Shown in pieces: positions 1-4,653 of a DNA stretch of 4,653 nucleotides. A program made the position numbers and the translations under genes. The stretch lies in the IMG/VR virus record IMGVR_UViG_2568526749_000005; one strand, written 5' to 3'. Below the pieces are notes generated by a model that did not search any database, was not told where the DNA came from, and saw nothing but the letters and a program-made list of their open reading frames with translations. Within the stretch, counting starts at the first letter, position 1; every line of letters starts with the position of its first letter. The stretch comes from a virus. Its lineage: Duplodnaviria > Heunggongvirae > Uroviricota > Caudoviricetes.

Positions 1-62
1 GTTGTTCTGAGGTGAGCATATCACCTCTGTTCAGGTGGCCAAATTCAGTAAACCACTTCAAA
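1..62. repeat. Left copy of perfect 62-bp terminal inverted repeat (IR-L)
   Basis: Positions 1-62 are the exact reverse complement of 4591-4652, checked base by base; identity breaks at 63/4590. Contains an internal 7-bp stem palindrome GAGGTGA (9-15) / TCACCTC (21-27) with a 5-nt loop. Confidence 0.95.
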
Positions 63-353: not shown

Positions 354-704
354 CTAATTTTTATTCTTTGATCTCGTCCACAGGTAAAGAAGAGCAATGG
401 CAAGACAGGAAACAGAGAATAGATAACCTACCTCATATGGTGCGCCAAAAAAATTAGCTATTGATACGGGCAAAAAAGCCGAAGCGATCAGAATTGAAAG
501 GCAAAAAATAAGCCCAGTAACATAGTTTATTAAACTCTTAAATGAGAAACGTTTTGCTTGATTTACGGTCTCAGCGAGTGATCGCTTAACGATGGATAAA
601 AGCAAATAGATGGCGACAGTAGCTAATGCCCCTTTCCACCAGTCTGGATATAGTTTTGCGACAATCAGCCCAAGGAAAACCATGATGACAGACTGAGCAT
701 TCAC
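354..704 (-). CDS. Small integral membrane protein (about 116 aa, 3-4 predicted TM helices); possible superinfection-exclusion-type protein
   Basis: ORF with GTG start at 702-704 preceded on the minus strand by AAGGAGG (complement of 711-717) at 6-nt spacing. The sequence is strongly hydrophobic. It is divergent from the 880-1904 operon. No family recognised. Confidence 0.5.
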   Translation of the reverse strand: MNAQSVIMVFLGLIVAKLYPDWWKGALATVAIYLLLSIVKRSLAETVNQAKRFSFKSLINYVTGLIFCLSILIASAFLPVSIANFFGAPYEVGYLFSVSCLAIALLYLWTRSKNKN

Positions 705-879: not shown

Positions 880-1446
880 ATGAGCAATGAGACTAATGGG
901 ATTGATGAAATGTTTAGCTTGAACGCTGCCAAAGCTGGAGTCGCAATAGGTTTGCTATTACAGCAAGCTTCTGCGTTCAGTTGTGAGGTGGTTGTTACTG
1001 ATAACGTTCAGCACGCTTACCATCAATCCTCATTCAGCAGTGAACGGGCTAATGATGAGCTTCATGAGGCGGTGTCTTCGATTAAAGAATTGTCTCGAAT
1101 GCTGAAATACGCTTATCGTGTTCTTGCAAACGCTACCGATGAGAATGTAGACAATGTGTTGTCTATCATTGAACCAGAAAAGTCTCGATTGATAGAGCAT
1201 CAATTGAGAGGACTTGAAGGGGCAATGAAATCGGTATTCAAAGAAGCTTCTGCTGATTTTAAAGAGATCGCAAGAGATATCTATATCGTTGTTGCTGATG
1301 CCAGATCTGCCGTAACCAACCTGAATAGTCTTATTAAACAACGCTCATGTGTTCCGGTTGTTTTTGATAGTTCCGTAGATATGGCTGGTTTGCGTGCGCT
1401 TGCTGAGCACGGGACTCGTGTGTTTCACTCTGGTAACTTCCACTGA
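880..1446 (+). CDS. Hypothetical protein (188 aa), predicted mostly helical; no family recognised; upstream partner of the YafO-like gene
   Basis: ATG at 880 preceded by AGGAGG (869-874) at 5-nt spacing. The stop TGA (1444-1446) overlaps the SD of the downstream gene. Confidence 0.7.
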   Translation: MSNETNGIDEMFSLNAAKAGVAIGLLLQQASAFSCEVVVTDNVQHAYHQSSFSSERANDELHEAVSSIKELSRMLKYAYRVLANATDENVDNVLSIIEPEKSRLIEHQLRGLEGAMKSVFKEASADFKEIARDIYIVVADARSAVTNLNSLIKQRSCVPVVFDSSVDMAGLRALAEHGTRVFHSGNFH

Positions 1447-1454
1447 GGTAAAAC

Positions 1455-1904
1455 ATGCAAGTAACCGTGGAATATAATCAGGATAGTTTTGACTATTTTT
1501 TCTCCCCGGTTTTTGTTGAGTTTCCTGATTTAAAACAAACACTTGTAGATGATTTTATCATCTACAAGTCTACGGGAACGTTGCCCAGCTATTTTGGCAG
1601 AGACACCTCTTATCATCGACCTCCTGATATTGAAGATGCAGGCCTTATGCACCTTCATTTAGCAATTGGTGAAAATAAATTTGAGCCAATAAAAAATGGC
1701 ACAGATATCAGCACACCGCAAAAGTTGCAGTGGCATAAAACATCCAATACCGCTCTCGTTTATGCACAAAATCTTTTTGATGAGAACAGGTATTCATTGA
1801 TTGCTCTTTTTCATCCTGTAGCTCACATGTCTGCTAACAATCATAATAGAATGAGAGTGTTAGCAGGGTATGCGAGAGACTTTAGAAACACTATGTTTGA
1901 CTAA
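1455..1904 (+). CDS. YafO-family toxin-like protein (ribosome-dependent mRNA interferase family), 149 aa
   Basis: ATG at 1455 with GAGG (1445-1448) 6 nt upstream. Resembles my recollection of E. coli YafO in several blocks (DFIxYK..G.LP..FGRD.SY, H.HLA, LVYxQ..FDE, LIA, NN..M). Followed by an intrinsic terminator. Confidence 0.6.
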   Translation: MQVTVEYNQDSFDYFFSPVFVEFPDLKQTLVDDFIIYKSTGTLPSYFGRDTSYHRPPDIEDAGLMHLHLAIGENKFEPIKNGTDISTPQKLQWHKTSNTALVYAQNLFDENRYSLIALFHPVAHMSANNHNRMRVLAGYARDFRNTMFD

Positions 1905-1927
1905 ACCCACCGTCAGGTGGGTTTTTT
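1905..1927 (+). terminator. Rho-independent terminator after the YafO-like gene
   Basis: Stem ACCCACC (1905-1911) / GGTGGGT (1916-1922), loop GTCA, then a T-run through 1927. It lies between convergent genes (1455-1904 plus, 1953-2489 minus). Confidence 0.7.
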
Positions 1928-1952: not shown

Positions 1953-2489
1953 TCAAACAACCCACCAGTTTGCCTGATTGGATGCCAGCCTTGCAGTTTT
2001 TATGGAATTAATTATGCCATGCTCAAGAGCCTTGTTAGCATCCAAAATGGTCGAGTCTGCTATCAGGGATGCCCACCTAATATGGGTTCCGATGTCGATA
2101 TTGAACGTCTCAACGAAGCGATCAAGATCGTTATCGAGGCATTTCCCGTACTCTCTCAATCTGGCATGGTCGGCGGCTGGGGAGGCAAAGCACCATAATA
2201 GAGGATGTAACAGGAATCTTGATAATGGGTTTGCGAAACGTTCTGAGCCAGCCAGGAAAACGATATTAGCTATGGATTCAACATTGCTTATGTTGTGAGT
2301 TCTAACGGTAACAGGGAGTGACTTAAGAAAGTTATACGCAGTAAAGCCAGCAGCAGTTTCCCCTCCCTGACTTGATATATGGATATTTAATTCAGTTGCG
2401 CCTTGAGATAATGCGGTGAGACAGTGGTTCTGAAGTTGCCCAACAGTGGCAGTGTTAACAGGGCATAAGAAATGAATTGTGTGCAGCAT
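1953..2489 (-). CDS. ClpP-fold (S14-like) serine protease homolog, 178 aa
   Basis: Aligns to the ClpP core as I recall it: IHISSQGGETAAGFTAYNFL vs [20 protein letters not shown], a Ser in NVESIAN aligned to catalytic Ser in GQAASMG, LLHP vs MIHQP, and C-terminal EHGIINSI vs EYGLVDSI. Its ATG (2487-2489) overlaps the mnt stop (2489-2491) as TAATG. Confidence 0.7.
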   Translation of the reverse strand: MLHTIHFLCPVNTATVGQLQNHCLTALSQGATELNIHISSQGGETAAGFTAYNFLKSLPVTVRTHNISNVESIANIVFLAGSERFANPLSRFLLHPLLWCFASPAADHARLREYGKCLDNDLDRFVETFNIDIGTHIRWASLIADSTILDANKALEHGIINSIKTARLASNQANWWVV

Positions 2490-2737
2490 TATTTTTCATC
2501 CTTAGCATACATGGTCTTTAGCGTCTCAAGTAGCGCCTCTTTGAATTTATCAGCTTCTTGCTGAGCAAATGACTCAACTGACTTTGGCGACCTATCTTCA
2601 TCAATCGCGGCTTGCAAAATCATGACGATCTCGGAGTTAACAGAGCGACCATTTTTTGATGCTCTGACAGCAAGAGCCTCGCGTAAAGATTCAGGGATTC
2701 TTACCGTAGTTGGAGAAATTGACACACCCTTTGCCAT
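2489..2737 (-). CDS. mnt: Mnt-like ribbon-helix-helix repressor (82 aa)
   Basis: ATG at 2735-2737 with AAGGTG SD on the minus strand. Similar to P22 Mnt (RIPESLREALAVRASKNGRSVNSEIVMILQAAI vs FRMPMEVREKLKFRAEANGRSMNSELLQIVQDAL). Divergent from arc. The ORF track extends to 2779, but that N-terminal extension has no homology. Confidence 0.75.
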   Translation of the reverse strand: MAKGVSISPTTVRIPESLREALAVRASKNGRSVNSEIVMILQAAIDEDRSPKSVESFAQQEADKFKEALLETLKTMYAKDEK

Positions 2738-2851
2738 ATAACACCTTTGGTATTCAATTTGATAGCAAAGTGTATGCAAAAAAATTTTGACTAGATATAC
2801 TCACTTTGCTATCTTTTGTATTCGAAAAGAGTTGTTTGCGTGGAGGGTAAC
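2738..2851. promoter_or_regulatory. Divergent mnt / arc-ant promoter-operator region
   Basis: Perfect 12-bp inverted-repeat arms GATAGCAAAGTG (2761-2772) and CACTTTGCTATC (2802-2813), 29 bp apart. Candidate Pant: -35 TTGACT (2787-2792), 17-bp spacer, -10 TATCTT (2810-2815), overlapped by the right arm. A TTGCAT -35 candidate for Pmnt sits on the minus strand (complement of 2774-2779). Confidence 0.55.
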
Positions 2852-3004
2852 ATGGAGAAAGAAATAAGTAAGATTTTGGTAAGGATGCCGCAGTCGTTAA
2901 AGGATGCTATCGGTAGCAGGGCAAAGGAAGAGTGCAGGTCGTTTAACTCAGAGGTTATCAAGCGCCTGATAGACAGCCTGAAGAGAGAGGGGGTAACGGT
3001 GTGA
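2852..3004 (+). CDS. arc: Arc-like ribbon-helix-helix repressor (50 aa)
   Basis: ATG at 2852 with GGAGGG SD (2842-2847). Similar to P22 Arc (VRMPQSLKDAIGSRAKEECRSFNSEVIKRLIDSLKREG vs LRWPREVLDLVRKVAEENGRSVNSEIYQRVMESFKKEG). Confidence 0.75.
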   Translation: MEKEISKILVRMPQSLKDAIGSRAKEECRSFNSEVIKRLIDSLKREGVTV

Positions 3005-3174
3005 TTCGCTTGGATGCAGTAGTCAAAGAGATTGCGATTACCATTTTAAGACCAAATTTTGTTCATGGCGAATCATTTGGCACGAACGAAAAATTGAGAA
3101 GAGAAAGAGTATTCAGTGGCAAGCGCACGTTTTCAGAAGTGATGCTTGATGCGGCAAAGAAATCAAAACAGTGA
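3001..3174 (+). CDS. Possible small ORF (57 codons) translationally coupled to arc; speculative
   Basis: GTG at 3001-3003 overlaps the arc stop (GTGTGA), with GAGGGGG (2987-2993) 7 nt upstream. Open frame to TGA at 3172-3174. No homology recognised. It overlaps the predicted sar-like terminator, so it may be non-coding. Confidence 0.15.
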
Positions 3175-3236
3175 AGCCCCAACTGCTGGAACAGTCAGGG
3201 CTTCGGTTGTCGGTAAATCCGTGGAGAAAAACCAAC
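3157..3236 (-). ncRNA. sar: Predicted sar-like antisense small RNA covering the ant ribosome-binding site
   Basis: Minus strand has an extended -10 TGcTATACT (complement of 3243-3251) placing the start near 3236. A minus-strand-specific hairpin follows (complement of 3173-3204, 13-bp stem with two G-U pairs, 6-nt loop), then the U-rich tail ACUGUUUUGAUUUCUUU (complement of 3156-3172). This matches the known P22 sar arrangement (about 69 nt, antisense to the ant start). Confidence 0.35.
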
Positions 3237-4139
3237 ATGAATAGTATAGCAATTTTAGAAGCAGTGAACACCTCTTACGTGCCATTCAACGGTCAGCAAA
3301 TTATCACCGCCATGGCTGCCGGAGTTGCATATGTTGCGATGAAGCCAATCGTTGAAAACCTCGGAATGAGCTGGTCAACGCAGCAAACAAAACTCATGAA
3401 GCAGATTAGCAAATTCAACTGTGTTCATATGAACATGGTTGCCGCTGATGGTAAGCTTCGTAAGCTACTCTGCCTTCCTTTGAAGAAGTTAAATGGATGG
3501 CTGTTCAGCATCAACCCTGAGAAAGTTCGTGCTGACATCCGCGATAAACTGATTCAGTACCAGGAAGAATGCTTTACTGTGCTGCATGACTACTGGACAA
3601 AGGGAGAGGCAGCAAATGCACGGAAGAAAACATCTGTTGATGACAGGACTCCGCTTCGTGATGCTGTAAATATGCTAGTCAGCAAAAAGCATCTAATGTA
3701 CCCAGAAGCTTATGCAATGATTCATCAGCGTTTCAATGTGGAAAGTATTGAAGAGCTTGATGCATCTCAGATACCACAAGCAGTAGAGTACATCCACAGG
3801 GTAGTGCTTGAAGGTGAGTTCATCGGCAAACAAGAGAAGAAAACCAACGAGCTTTCTGCAAAAGAAGCAAACAGCCTTGTATGGCTATGGGATTATGCCA
3901 ACCGCTCACAGGCATTATTCCGCGAACTGTATCCGGCGCTAAAACAAATTCAATCGAACTATTCCGGCAGATGTCATGACTGCGGTTATGAGTTCTCCCG
4001 TATTATCGATATGGCGAGAGACGTTTTAATCAATCACACACGAGATGTTGATATCAATGAGCCAGACGGACCAACGAATCTTTCCGCATGGATGAGACTT
4101 AAGAATAAAGAATTACCTCCTTCAGTACATAATTACTGA
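3237..4139 (+). CDS. ant: Ant-like antirepressor (300 aa)
   Basis: ATG at 3237 with GGAGA SD. The N-terminus [26 protein letters not shown] matches my recollection of P22 Ant. Position after arc is as in P22 immI. The ORF-track start at 3171 is a GTG upstream extension. Confidence 0.85.
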
Positions 4140-4157
4140 CAGATAACCAACGCAACG

Positions 4158-4181
4158 ACCCAGCTTCGGCTGGGTTTTTTT
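4158..4181 (+). terminator. Rho-independent terminator after ant
   Basis: Stem ACCCAGC (4158-4164) / GCTGGGT (4169-4175), loop TTCG, then a T-run to 4181. Confidence 0.7.
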
Positions 4182-4239
4182 ATGCCCAAAATTCACCGTG
4201 GCCATGCTGCGGCGATTCTTTGCATCTGGAGCAAATTAA

Positions 4240-4608
4240 ATGACAGACATTACAGCCAATGTGATTGTATCGATGCCTTCGCAACTCTTCACTATGGCGC
4301 GTTCTTTTAAAGCCGTAGCCAATGGCAAAATTTATATCGGTAAAATTGACACTGACCCGGTAAATCCTGAAAACCGGATTCAGGTTTATGTAGAGAACGA
4401 AGACGGCTCTCACGTTCCTGTTTCGCAACCAATCATCATTAACGCTGCTGGTTACCCTGTATATAACGGACGGATTGCCAAGTTCGTAACTGTGCAAGGC
4501 CATTCTATGGCTGTGTACGATGCGTATGGCGTACAGCAGTTCTATTTCCAGAATGTGCTGAAGTATGATCCTGATCAACTACGGCAGCAATTTGAAGTGG
4601 TTTACTGA
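4240..4608 (+). CDS. P22-type tailspike N-terminal head-binding domain only (122 aa); truncated relative to a full tailspike
   Basis: [43 protein letters not shown]...[15 protein letters not shown]...NVLKYDPDQ closely matches the P22 gp9 N-terminus. GGAG SD at 4228-4231. Similarity ends at DPDQ; the last codons FEVVY and the TGA stop (4606-4608) lie inside IR-R. Confidence 0.85.
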
Positions 4609-4653
4609 ATTTGGCCACCTGAACAGAGGTGATATGCTCACCTCAGAACAACA
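4591..4653. repeat. Right copy of the terminal inverted repeat (IR-R)
   Basis: 4591-4652 is the reverse complement of 1-62. Position 4653 (A) would pair with a T one base before the window start, so the full repeat may be 63 bp or more with 5'-TG...CA-3' ends. Same internal palindrome at 4626-4632 / 4638-4644. Confidence 0.95.

What the first reader, a model, noticed from the sequence alone, without database searches (positions are those of the whole stretch)
2738..2851. Divergent immI control region with twin operator arms unlike the P22 operators
Two perfect copies of GATAGCAAAGTG in inverted orientation (2761-2772 and 2802-2813) flank the predicted Pant -35, and the right arm overlaps the -10. 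The repressor folds are P22-like, but the operator sequences differ from the P22 Omnt/Oarc as I recall them. That implies a distinct immunity specificity (heteroimmune immI).
Basis: partly seen in the sequence, partly recalled or inferred. Interest (0 to 1): 0.4.

Follow-up and report, generated by a model that had tools for sequence, protein, structure and literature searches.

The report
Heteroimmune immI operator boxes, P22-like prophage
This is the on/off control region for the antirepressor gene of a P22-like E. coli prophage, and it carries its own pair of repressor-binding boxes, so it is a new specificity variant of a well-known phage switch rather than a new kind of system.

Summary
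GATAGCAAAGTG (2761-2772) and its exact reverse complement (2802-2813) lie 29 nt apart in the 114-nt spacer between a leftward Mnt-like gene and a rightward Arc-like gene. They flank a Pant-like -35 and the right copy overlaps the extended -10. A perfect repeat this long arose in 7 of 20,000 shuffles. The window is an immI "ant moron" of a P22-like prophage: gene 16, mnt-like, arc-like, sar RNA, Ant (84% identical to P22) and the tailspike N-terminus. The segment 2480-3010 is 100% identical in E. coli ATCC 11775 and matches 107 of 5,426 complete E. coli genomes. P22 Omnt and Oarc are absent, and P22 DNA homology starts only at 3172.

Across about 14 related control-region types, the repeated box follows the beta-strand of the Mnt-like protein and not the Arc-like partner. 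The arms are therefore most likely the high-affinity boxes of two mirrored operators read by the Mnt-like repressor, which implies a distinct immI specificity. There are caveats. Most relatives have an 11/12 repeat. The right arm sits where the right half of P22 Oarc sits and matches it at 9/11 positions. The Arc-like operator is unresolved, and nothing has been tested biochemically. This is a new variant of a known kind, of modest interest.

The parts
1953..2489 (-). 178-aa ClpP-like protease gene. It is the second gene of the mnt-like operon, and its start overlaps the mnt-like stop.
   Evidence: Pfam CLP_protease, 44 bits. RefSeq annotates it as an 'ATP-dependent Clp protease proteolytic subunit'. 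The same gene pair occurs in PhiR12_1.
2489..2737 (-). Mnt-like ribbon-helix-helix repressor gene (82 aa). Predicted DNA-reading strand: GVSISPTTVRIP.
   Evidence: Pfam Arc domain, E = 9.5e-11. 36% identical to P22 Mnt across the DNA-binding domain and the C-terminal helix. Best solved-structure hit is 1mnt.
2745..2757 (.). Left outer, weaker box (CTTTGGTATTCAA). It overlaps the DNA of the mnt-like ribosome-binding site. Proposed secondary half of the left operator.
   Evidence: Direct repeat D2 with 2813-2823. Conserved in the Serratia relative. Replaced by a GTGAT-type box in the 611R6 type.
2761..2772 (.). Left arm GATAGCAAAGTG. Proposed primary box of the left operator, centred about 55 nt upstream of the predicted Pant start.
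2778..2788 (+). A7T4 tract between the left arm and the -35. Possibly an UP-element or a bend. Conserved scaffold across the box types.
   Evidence: Read directly from the sequence. Conserved in the W, 611R6, PhiR12 and L047 types.
2787..2815 (+). Pant-like promoter: TTGACT, 17 nt, TATCTT, with a TG extended -10.
   Evidence: Promoter scan. Aligns with P22 Pant.
2793..2801 (.). AGATATACT segment between the -35 and the right arm. Probably the -10 region of the leftward Pmnt (TATATC on the minus strand). It is not specific to the Arc-like type.
   Evidence: Inferred from the P22 layout. The hypothesis that this segment follows the Arc type was rejected using L270.
2802..2813 (.). Right arm CACTTTGCTATC. 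Proposed primary box of the right operator. It overlaps the TG and four bases of the Pant -10.
2814..2823 (.). Right outer, weaker box TTTTGTATTC, 10 bp downstream of the right arm. It covers the predicted Pant start region.
   Evidence: Direct repeat D2. Conserved in Serratia. Its counterpart in the 611R6 type is TTTGTGATTCAC.
2852..3004 (+). Arc-like ribbon-helix-helix repressor gene (50 aa). Predicted DNA-reading strand: EISKILVRMP.
   Evidence: Pfam Arc domain, E = 5e-12. 39% identical to P22 Arc. Solved-structure hits to Arc.
3001..3174 (+). 57-aa ORF of unknown function between arc-like and sar.
   Evidence: Full-length match to phrog_17642. Annotated in RefSeq and in phiv205-1.
3170..3236 (-). 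sar antisense RNA gene.
   Evidence: Rfam RF00262, 83.9 bits against a gathering score of 43.
3237..4139 (+). Antirepressor gene ant (300 aa).
   Evidence: Pfam P22_AR_N and P22_AR_C. 84% identical to P22 Ant.

Best explanation
The spacer 2738-2851 is the back-to-back Pant/Pmnt control region of a variant immI module. The two 12-nt arms are the high-affinity boxes of two mirrored operators read by the Mnt-like repressor.

Each arm has a weaker copy 10-11 bp further from the promoter centre: CACTTTGCTATC + TTTTGTATTC on the right, and the mirror image on the left. That spacing suits a dimer-of-dimers like P22 Mnt.

Occupancy of the right operator covers the extended -10 and the start site of Pant and keeps ant silent in the lysogen. 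The left operator lies upstream of the A-tract and -35 and within the mnt-like leader. It would reinforce repression and/or autoregulate mnt.

Because the boxes and the DNA-reading residues both differ from P22, the module should be blind to P22 Mnt and Arc, and P22 should be blind to this module's repressors. That is a heteroimmune immI.

Shown here: the sequences, their positions, their conservation, and their co-variation with the Mnt-like head. Inferred: the binding itself, the stoichiometry, the position of Pmnt and the regulatory outcome.
For: 1. The repeat is real and unlikely by chance.
2. It lies on a Pant-like promoter that aligns with P22 Pant.
3. In the whole 44.6-kb phiv205-1 prophage, exact copies of the box occur only in this control region; the one 1-mismatch hit elsewhere lies in the IS transposase region.
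4. A Serratia relative keeps both arms and both outer boxes. Its 80-nt core is 94% identical, while the flanking mnt and arc coding DNA is 76-77% identical.
5. Co-variation:
- The window's head PTTVRIP goes with CTTTG(C/A)TATC.
- Heads of the form PY(S/G)(V/L)RMP go with GTGATATCAC-type boxes at the same three or four positions, whichever of five different rightward ribbon-helix-helix partners is present.
- Heads of the form P(L/M/T)G(I/V)R(I/L/V)P go with GTGTAGC boxes.
- The window and 611R6 share nearly the same Arc-like head but have different boxes.
6. Recombinants keep the Mnt head and the spacer together and break inside mnt, after the DNA-binding domain. L142-144 have a 611R6-type C-terminus. 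PhiR12_1 shares the C-terminal helix plus the ClpP-like gene at 96% DNA identity.
7. The Mnt-like protein aligns with P22 Mnt through the C-terminal helix, so a tetramer with two DNA-binding heads is plausible.
8. In the 611R6 type, the GTGAT cores of the primary and secondary boxes are 11 bp apart on both sides, in mirror arrangement.
Against: - No binding data exist.
- The window-type variant CACTTTGATATC differs from the 611R6 left box CACTGTGATATC at a single base, so the two 'specificities' are close.
- By position, the right arm corresponds to P22 Oarc rather than Omnt, and it matches the right half of Oarc at 9/11 positions.
- Edno5 has a head close to the 611R6 class but different boxes.
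- The Mnt head lies right next to the spacer, so some co-inheritance would be expected from linkage alone.
- The outer boxes are weak matches (6/10).
- Pmnt could not be placed with confidence; its best hexamers score 3-4 of 6.
Confidence: 0.55

Rival explanations
1. Both repressors use the same boxes. The Arc-like dimer and the Mnt-like tetramer compete or alternate on the arms, and the difference between them lies in oligomer state and timing rather than in the sequence each reads.
For: In the sister lineages PhiR12, L180 and Edno5, the two repressors carry nearly identical DNA-reading strands, for example ARDISPLGIRIP and RDIAPLGIRIP. In the window, the two N-terminal domains are closer to each other (47% identity) than to their P22 counterparts. 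No separate site specific to the Arc-like type could be found.
Against: In the window, the predicted DNA-facing residues differ: P9/T11/R13 in the Mnt-like protein against K7/L9/R11 in the Arc-like protein (positions assigned by analogy with Arc and Mnt, from memory). GTGATATCAC boxes persist with five very different rightward partners.
Confidence: 0.2
2. The arms are the Arc-like operator, equivalent to an Oarc split around the -35. The Mnt-like repressor would then bind elsewhere.
For: The right arm lies between the -35 and -10, exactly where Oarc lies in P22, and it matches the right half of Oarc at 9/11 positions. Both arms point inward, as the two Oarc half-sites do.
Against: The boxes do not follow the Arc-like head: the window and 611R6 have the same head but different boxes, while 611R6, L047, L270, L176 and L187 have different heads but the same boxes. 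A 50-aa dimer cannot span centres 41 bp apart. The two mismatches against Oarc fall in the TAGA box that P22 Arc is known to read (from memory).
Confidence: 0.1
3. The arms pair as a hairpin or cruciform, for example a 12-bp stem in a leftward transcript, and are not protein sites.
For: The complement is a perfect 12 nt, and the arms changed together between the window type and the 611R6 type.
Against: At the one polymorphic pair (2765/2809), the haplotypes are T/C (20 contigs), G/C (10) and G/A (4), and never the compensated T/A. Further copies occur as direct repeats that cannot pair. The Pant transcript starts downstream of both arms.
Confidence: 0.03
4. The repeat is inherited promoter scaffold or chance, with no operator function. 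The module could be a decaying remnant.
For: The window is cut at both ends by IS3-family copies. The whole 80-nt core is uniformly conserved, so conservation does not single out the arms.
Against: Shuffle P = 3.5e-4. The box sequence is replaced in concert at three or four positions when the Mnt head changes, while the scaffold between the boxes stays the same. All the genes are intact in 98 complete E. coli genomes and in the prophage record phiv205-1.
Confidence: 0.07

Closest known systems
Phage P22 immI region (mnt, Pmnt/Pant with Oarc and Omnt, arc, sar, ant)
   Same: - Same place in the genome, between gene 16 and the tailspike gene.
- Same gene order and orientation.
- Both repressors are Arc/Mnt-family ribbon-helix-helix proteins.
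- The sar RNA is present (83.9 bits) and Ant is 84% identical.
- The Pant core aligns, and a repressor box overlaps the -10.
   Different: - The repressors are only 36-39% identical to P22's, with different DNA-reading strands.
- There is no Omnt-type 17-bp palindrome downstream of the -10.
- P22 Omnt and Oarc are absent at up to 3 mismatches.
- The boxes flank the -35 with centres 41 bp apart, and there are outer secondary boxes.
- The spacer is 27 nt longer and contains an A7T4 tract.
- A ClpP-like gene lies in the mnt operon and a 57-aa ORF follows arc.
- P22 DNA homology starts only at 3172.
Variant 'ant morons' of P22-like phages and prophages (Villafane et al. 2008, PMC2629481: epsilon34, CUS-3, the UTI-1 and APEC-1 types), and phages Emek and vB_EcoP-611R6
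   Same: This is a highly mosaic region at the same locus with mnt, arc and ant homologues. 611R6 has the same scaffold and nearly the same Arc-like protein. Emek and L107-110 show that other natural Mnt heads come with their own operators.
   Different: The paper describes gene content only and does not analyse operators or specificity. I did not verify whether the window is the UTI-1/APEC-1 type. Emek, L107 and L110 keep the P22 layout (a single palindrome after the -10), and the window does not.
Immunity-type modularity in lambdoid phages (repressor plus operators exchanged as a cassette)
   Same: The DNA-reading domain and its operators travel together, while the effector (Ant, sar) and the oligomerisation part of the repressor are exchanged independently.
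   Different: Here the cassette is a ribbon-helix-helix head plus boxes that control an antirepressor. It is not a helix-turn-helix CI/Cro switch. The recombination joint lies inside the repressor gene, between the head and the C-terminal helix.

Membership tests
P22-type immI / 'ant moron' | Located between the gene 16 homologue and the tailspike gene of a P22-like late operon | tested here: met
   The C-terminus of the gene 16 homologue lies at 88-336 and resembles the P22 gp16 tail. The tailspike head-binding domain lies at 4240-4608 (Pfam, 220 bits). Context in E. coli ATCC 11775 and in phiv205-1 agrees.
P22-type immI / 'ant moron' | Divergent mnt and arc-ant transcription units separated by a short control region | tested here: met
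   The ORFs are 2737-2489 (-) and 2852-3004 (+), with a 114-nt spacer and a Pant-like promoter. Transcription itself was not tested.
P22-type immI / 'ant moron' | Antirepressor Ant with P22_AR_N and P22_AR_C domains | tested here: met
   153 and 98.5 bits. 84% identical to P22 Ant.
P22-type immI / 'ant moron' | sar antisense RNA opposite the ant ribosome-binding site | tested here: met
   RF00262, 83.9 bits, at 3170-3236 on the minus strand.
P22 immI immunity specificity (homoimmune with P22) | Omnt (AGGTCCACGGTGGACCT) and Oarc (ATGATAGAAGCACTCTACTAT), or close copies of them | tested here: not met
   No match at up to 3 mismatches. The region corresponding to Oarc is 15/22 identical, and the right arm matches the right half of Oarc at 9/11 positions.
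P22 immI immunity specificity (homoimmune with P22) | DNA-reading residues of the Mnt and Arc beta-strands conserved | tested here: not met
   The Mnt-like strand is GVSISPTTVRIP against P22 DDPHFNFRMP. The Arc-like strand is EISKILVRMP against P22 MPQFNLRWP.
Arc/Mnt ribbon-helix-helix repressors (Pfam PF03869) | Arc-like DNA-binding domain above the Pfam gathering score | tested here: met
   41.8 and 45.9 bits against a cut-off of 20.4. Solved-structure hits to 1mnt and to Arc entries.
Mnt subfamily (tetrameric) | C-terminal helix that forms the tetramerisation bundle | tested here: inconclusive
   The alignment with P22 Mnt runs to residue 79 of 82 and to residue 73 against 1mnt. The oligomer state was not modelled or measured.
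Arc/Mnt ribbon-helix-helix repressors (Pfam PF03869) | Sequence-specific binding to the proposed boxes | not testable with these tools
   There is only comparative co-variation.

The most novel reading that the evidence does not exclude
This may be a widespread family of antirepressor switches, found in P22-like podoviruses, lambdoid siphoviruses such as PhiR12_1, Edwardsiella phages and others, that works differently from P22 immI.

In this reading, a tetrameric Mnt-like repressor clamps two mirrored composite operators held at a fixed 41-bp phasing around an A-tract and the -35. It would shut both divergent promoters at once, giving negative rather than positive autoregulation.

Specificity would be re-programmed by swapping a short 'head plus boxes' cassette at a joint inside the repressor gene. 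In some lineages the small Arc-like partner carries the same head and would compete for the same boxes.
Probability: 0.2. Interest if true: 0.5.

Novelty: new variant of a known kind. Interest (0 to 1): 0.32.

Why it matters
If the boxes are read by the Mnt-like repressor, about 2% of complete E. coli genomes carry an antirepressor switch that P22-type repressors cannot see, and that in turn cannot see P22. The carriers include the E. coli type strain; most listed hits are human isolates, with several from chickens. That bears on which prophages can induce or protect one another in a polylysogen.

The family also offers a natural series of matched ribbon-helix-helix heads and operators: PTTVR with TTTG(C/A)TATC, PYSVR with GTGATATC, and PLGIR with GTGTAGC. 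Such a series is useful for working out a recognition code for this fold and for building orthogonal small repressors.

It does not change the general picture of how immI works.

Tried and rejected
1. Candidate Arc-like operator at 2793-2801 (AGATATACT). It is shared by the window and 611R6, which have the same Arc-like head, and it differs in L047, which has a different head. I rejected it because L270/L254 carry a window/611R6-type Arc-like head but have the L047 version (TAATATTAT) in a spacer almost identical to L047. The Arc-like operator is still unidentified.

2. A leftward promoter using the mirror -35 TTGCAT (complement of 2774-2779). No consistent -10 follows it in any type (by inspection). 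I kept the P22-like layout for Pmnt only as a weak inference.

3. A hairpin or cruciform. There is no compensatory haplotype.

4. A palindrome centred on CAC-N-GTG like P22 Omnt. This holds for the PhiR12 and L180 types (CTACAC-A-GTGTAG) but not for the window's arms.

5. One tetramer bridging both arms. The centres are 41 bp apart, which is too far for the short linkers unless the DNA loops tightly. This is not excluded, because an A-tract lies between the arms.

The scaffold-pattern scan of IMG/VR found no contigs beyond those already found through the proteins.

7. PADLOC gave no hits for the cargo genes.

8. The literature searches found descriptions of gene content in variant ant morons but no operator analysis of this type.

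Full report
**What the window is**

The 4653-nt window carries the following, from left to right:
- the C-terminus of a gene 16 (DNA-ejection protein) homologue at 88-336;
- a small membrane-protein ORF (704-354, minus strand) at the position P22 sieA occupies;
- a 188-aa ORF followed by a YafO-family toxin gene and a terminator;
- a ClpP-like gene (2489-1953, minus strand);
- an 82-aa Mnt-like gene (2737-2489, minus strand);
- a 114-nt spacer;
- a 50-aa Arc-like gene (2852-3004);
- a 57-aa ORF;
- the sar antisense RNA (3170-3236, minus strand; Rfam 83.9 bits);
- ant (3237-4139; 84% identical to P22 Ant);
- the head-binding domain of a tailspike.

This is the immI region, or 'ant moron', of a P22-like phage. 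The segment 2480-3010 is 100% identical in E. coli ATCC 11775 and matches 107 of 5,426 complete E. coli genomes, always on the chromosome. The stretch 2400-3300 is 98.6% identical in the Lederbergvirus prophage phiv205-1. P22 DNA homology covers only 3172-4578 and a short patch at 702-735. The repressors, the spacer and the 57-aa ORF therefore form a non-P22 cassette joined to a P22-type sar-ant effector at the sar terminator.

**The observation**

The repeat is exactly as described: GATAGCAAAGTG at 2761-2772 and CACTTTGCTATC at 2802-2813, perfect, 29 nt apart. The window has no other copy at up to 2 mismatches. The only promoter-like site in the spacer is TTGACT (2787-2792), 17 nt, then TATCTT (2810-2815) with an upstream TG. 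The arms therefore flank the -35, and the right arm covers the extended -10.

A perfect inverted repeat of at least 12 nt arose in 7 of 20,000 dinucleotide shuffles of the spacer. In the complete 44.6-kb phiv205-1 genome, exact copies of the box occur only in this control region. At one mismatch there is a further copy overlapping the left box and one hit in the IS transposase region.

**The proteins**

Both repressors carry the Arc-like ribbon-helix-helix domain. Their best solved relatives are P22 Mnt (1mnt) and Arc. Identity to the P22 proteins is 36% and 39%. The N-terminal strands that read DNA in this fold are different: GVSISPTTVRIP against P22 Mnt DDPHFNFRMP, and EISKILVRMP against P22 Arc MPQFNLRWP.

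The alignment with P22 Mnt continues through the C-terminal helix. In P22 that helix forms the tetramer (from established knowledge of Mnt). The oligomer state here is inferred.

**Comparison with P22 operators**

P22 Omnt and Oarc have no match in the window at up to 3 mismatches. There is no palindrome downstream of the -10, where Omnt lies in P22.

The regions are not unrelated, however. The Pant cores align. The stretch from the -35 to the -10 is 15/22 identical to the P22 stretch that contains Oarc. The right arm CACTTTGCTAT matches the right half of Oarc (CACTCTACTAT) at 9/11 positions. Relative to P22, the window has 27 extra nucleotides upstream of the -35 that hold the left arm and an A7T4 tract.

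**Relatives and co-variation**

I collected the same kind of locus from four sources:
- annotated phages (611R6, PhiR12_1, CUS-3, ES2, ST899, Edno5, Emek, epsilon34);
- one Serratia genome;
- IMG/VR;
- metagenomes.

A subset shares a scaffold with the window. It reads: left box ending in GTG, then TA-NN-CAAAAAAA(T/C)TTTGAC(T/A), then nine or ten nucleotides, then a right box starting with CAC and overlapping the -10. Exactly 29 nt separate the GTG from the CAC.

Within this scaffold, the box sequence changes with the Mnt-like head:

| Mnt-like head | Box | Rightward partner(s) |
|---|---|---|
| GVSISPTTVRIP (window); GASISPTTIRIP (Serratia) | CTTTG(C/A)TATC | EISKILVRMP; DVSKTLIRMP |
| VRDIAPYSVRMP, VRDISPYGVRMP, IRDIIPYSLRMP, IRDITPYSLRMP | GTGATATCAC / CAC-N-GTGATAT | five different heads: EVSRILVRMP, EISRIVVRMP, DVVDCIVRMS, SKLQLRLTE, GKFQLRLTE |
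| ARDISPLGIRIP and related P(L/M/T)G(I/V)R heads | GTGTAGC / CTACACAGTGTAG | same head as the Mnt-like protein (PhiR12, L180) or a close variant (L181-L186) |

The window and 611R6 have almost the same Arc-like head but different boxes. L047 and L270 have different Arc-like heads but nearly identical spacers. The boxes therefore follow the Mnt-like protein and not the Arc-like one.

Recombinants point the same way:
- L142-144 join the window-type head and spacer to a 611R6-type Mnt C-terminus.
- PhiR12_1 shares the Mnt C-terminal helix and the ClpP-like gene with the window at 96% DNA identity, but has its own head and boxes.

The joints thus fall inside mnt, after the DNA-binding domain.

**Conservation**

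The Serratia relative keeps both arms and both outer boxes. Its 80-nt core (2744-2823) is 75/80 identical, against 77% and 76% for the adjacent mnt and arc coding DNA. The whole core is under constraint, not the arms alone.

Among the 34 IMG/VR contigs with the window-type head, the arms vary at one position each, and these are the two positions that would pair (2765 G/T and 2809 C/A). One further variant has CGC in place of CAC. The haplotypes are T/C (20 contigs), G/C (10) and G/A (4), and never T/A. The metagenome contigs show the same three haplotypes. The perfect 12/12 repeat of the window is therefore a minority state. The absence of the compensated combination argues against selection for base pairing.

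**Likely architecture**

Each arm has a weaker copy further from the promoter centre:
- On the right: CACTTTGCTATC followed by TTTTGTATTC (2802-2823).
- On the left, read on the other strand: CACTTTGCTATC followed by AAATTGAATAC (2772-2750).

The TTG cores are 10 and 11 bp apart. In the 611R6 type this is clearer: CACGGTGATATG-TTTGTGATTCAC on one side and CACTGTGATATC-AATGTGATTATCAC on the other, with the GTGAT cores 11 bp apart on both sides.

Two boxes one helical turn apart is what a dimer-of-dimers such as Mnt or Arc needs. I therefore read the region as two mirrored composite operators with the arms as their strong halves, centred about 55 and 14 nt upstream of the predicted Pant start. 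The right one would block the -10 and the start site of Pant. The left one lies upstream of the A-tract and -35 and, if Pmnt is laid out as in P22, inside the mnt leader. This architecture is inference.

**What remains open**

- I could not place Pmnt with confidence. The best candidates score 3-4 of 6 per hexamer.
- I could not identify a separate operator for the Arc-like protein.
- In sister lineages (PhiR12, L180, Edno5) the two repressors have nearly the same head. In the window, the two heads are closer to each other (47% identity) than to their P22 counterparts. Shared use of the boxes is therefore a serious alternative.
- The window-type and 611R6-type boxes can differ by a single base, so cross-recognition between those two types cannot be excluded.

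**Literature**

Villafane et al. 2008 (PMC2629481) described the strong variability of the 'ant moron' among P22-like phages and prophages, including E. coli prophage types. They noted that only the P22 version has been studied. The phage L paper (PMC8022706) and a 2026 transcriptome paper on phage Kapi1 (PMC12922286) say only that such loci differ from P22. I found no operator analysis of this type in the library searched.

**Verdict**

The feature is real and is almost certainly a repressor-binding pair in a variant immI control region. The heteroimmunity reading is well supported by comparison but untested. It is a new variant of a known kind, and it is already present, with only generic annotation, in many sequenced genomes.

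Noticed in passing
window 1-62 and 4591-4652: The two ends of the window are a perfect 62-nt inverted repeat. The sequence is the outer end of a multicopy IS3-family element (ISEc52-like), found in 4,020 of 5,426 E. coli genomes. It truncates the gene 16 homologue and the tailspike gene (122 aa remain). The immI segment is therefore bracketed by two inverted IS copies, or the contig ended in them.
   Followed up: partly
window 1953-2489 (-), overlapping the mnt-like stop at 2489: A 178-aa ClpP-like serine protease gene is translationally coupled to the mnt-like gene. The same pair occurs in the lambdoid siphovirus PhiR12_1 (L005 1483-2267), where window 2400-2570 is 96% identical. It has no PADLOC hit and its function in a lysogen is unknown.
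   Followed up: partly
window 880-1925: A 188-aa ORF (phrog_8416, no Pfam hit) is followed directly by a YafO-family toxin gene (1455-1904) and a terminator (1905-1925). This may be a toxin-antitoxin-like moron. A perfect 13-bp hairpin (1541-1569) lies inside the toxin gene.
   Followed up: no
window 3001-3174: A 57-aa ORF whose GTG start overlaps the arc-like stop matches phrog_17642 over its full length. It is unrelated to the 73-aa ORF at the same place in 611R6 and Emek. Its end overlaps the sar terminator.
   Followed up: partly
L006 (phage CUS-3, CP000711) about 1489-1626, inside the feature 'bsq2; boundary sequence': An unannotated 46-aa Arc-like ORF (MKVKTLRMPEKLEK...; Pfam Arc, 33.8 bits) lies upstream of ant. 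The 2008 comparison stated that CUS-3 lacks arc. Its spacer has its own direct repeat, ATGCGTACC, present twice.
   Followed up: partly
L002 (P22), L107/L108, L010 (Emek), L110: Relatives with the P22 layout show natural pairs of Mnt head and operator at the Omnt position: AGGTCCACGGTGGACCT with DPHFNFRMP, TGAACCACGGTGGTTCA with DPQFKLRLP, and TAGTACGGTACTA with DPQFNVRMP.
   Followed up: partly
L005 (PhiR12_1, PV340549) 255-2267: A complete immI-like module (antirepressor, small Arc-like gene, Mnt-like gene, ClpP-like gene) sits between tail-tip assembly genes K and L of a lambdoid siphovirus. The module is therefore not confined to the gene 16/tailspike site of P22-like podoviruses.
   Followed up: no
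window 354-704 (-) and 702-735: A 116-aa hydrophobic ORF occupies the place of P22 sieA. It has no Pfam or PHROG hit. The 34 nt at its start region are 97% identical to P22, which suggests that a P22-type upstream region was kept in front of a replaced gene.
   Followed up: no
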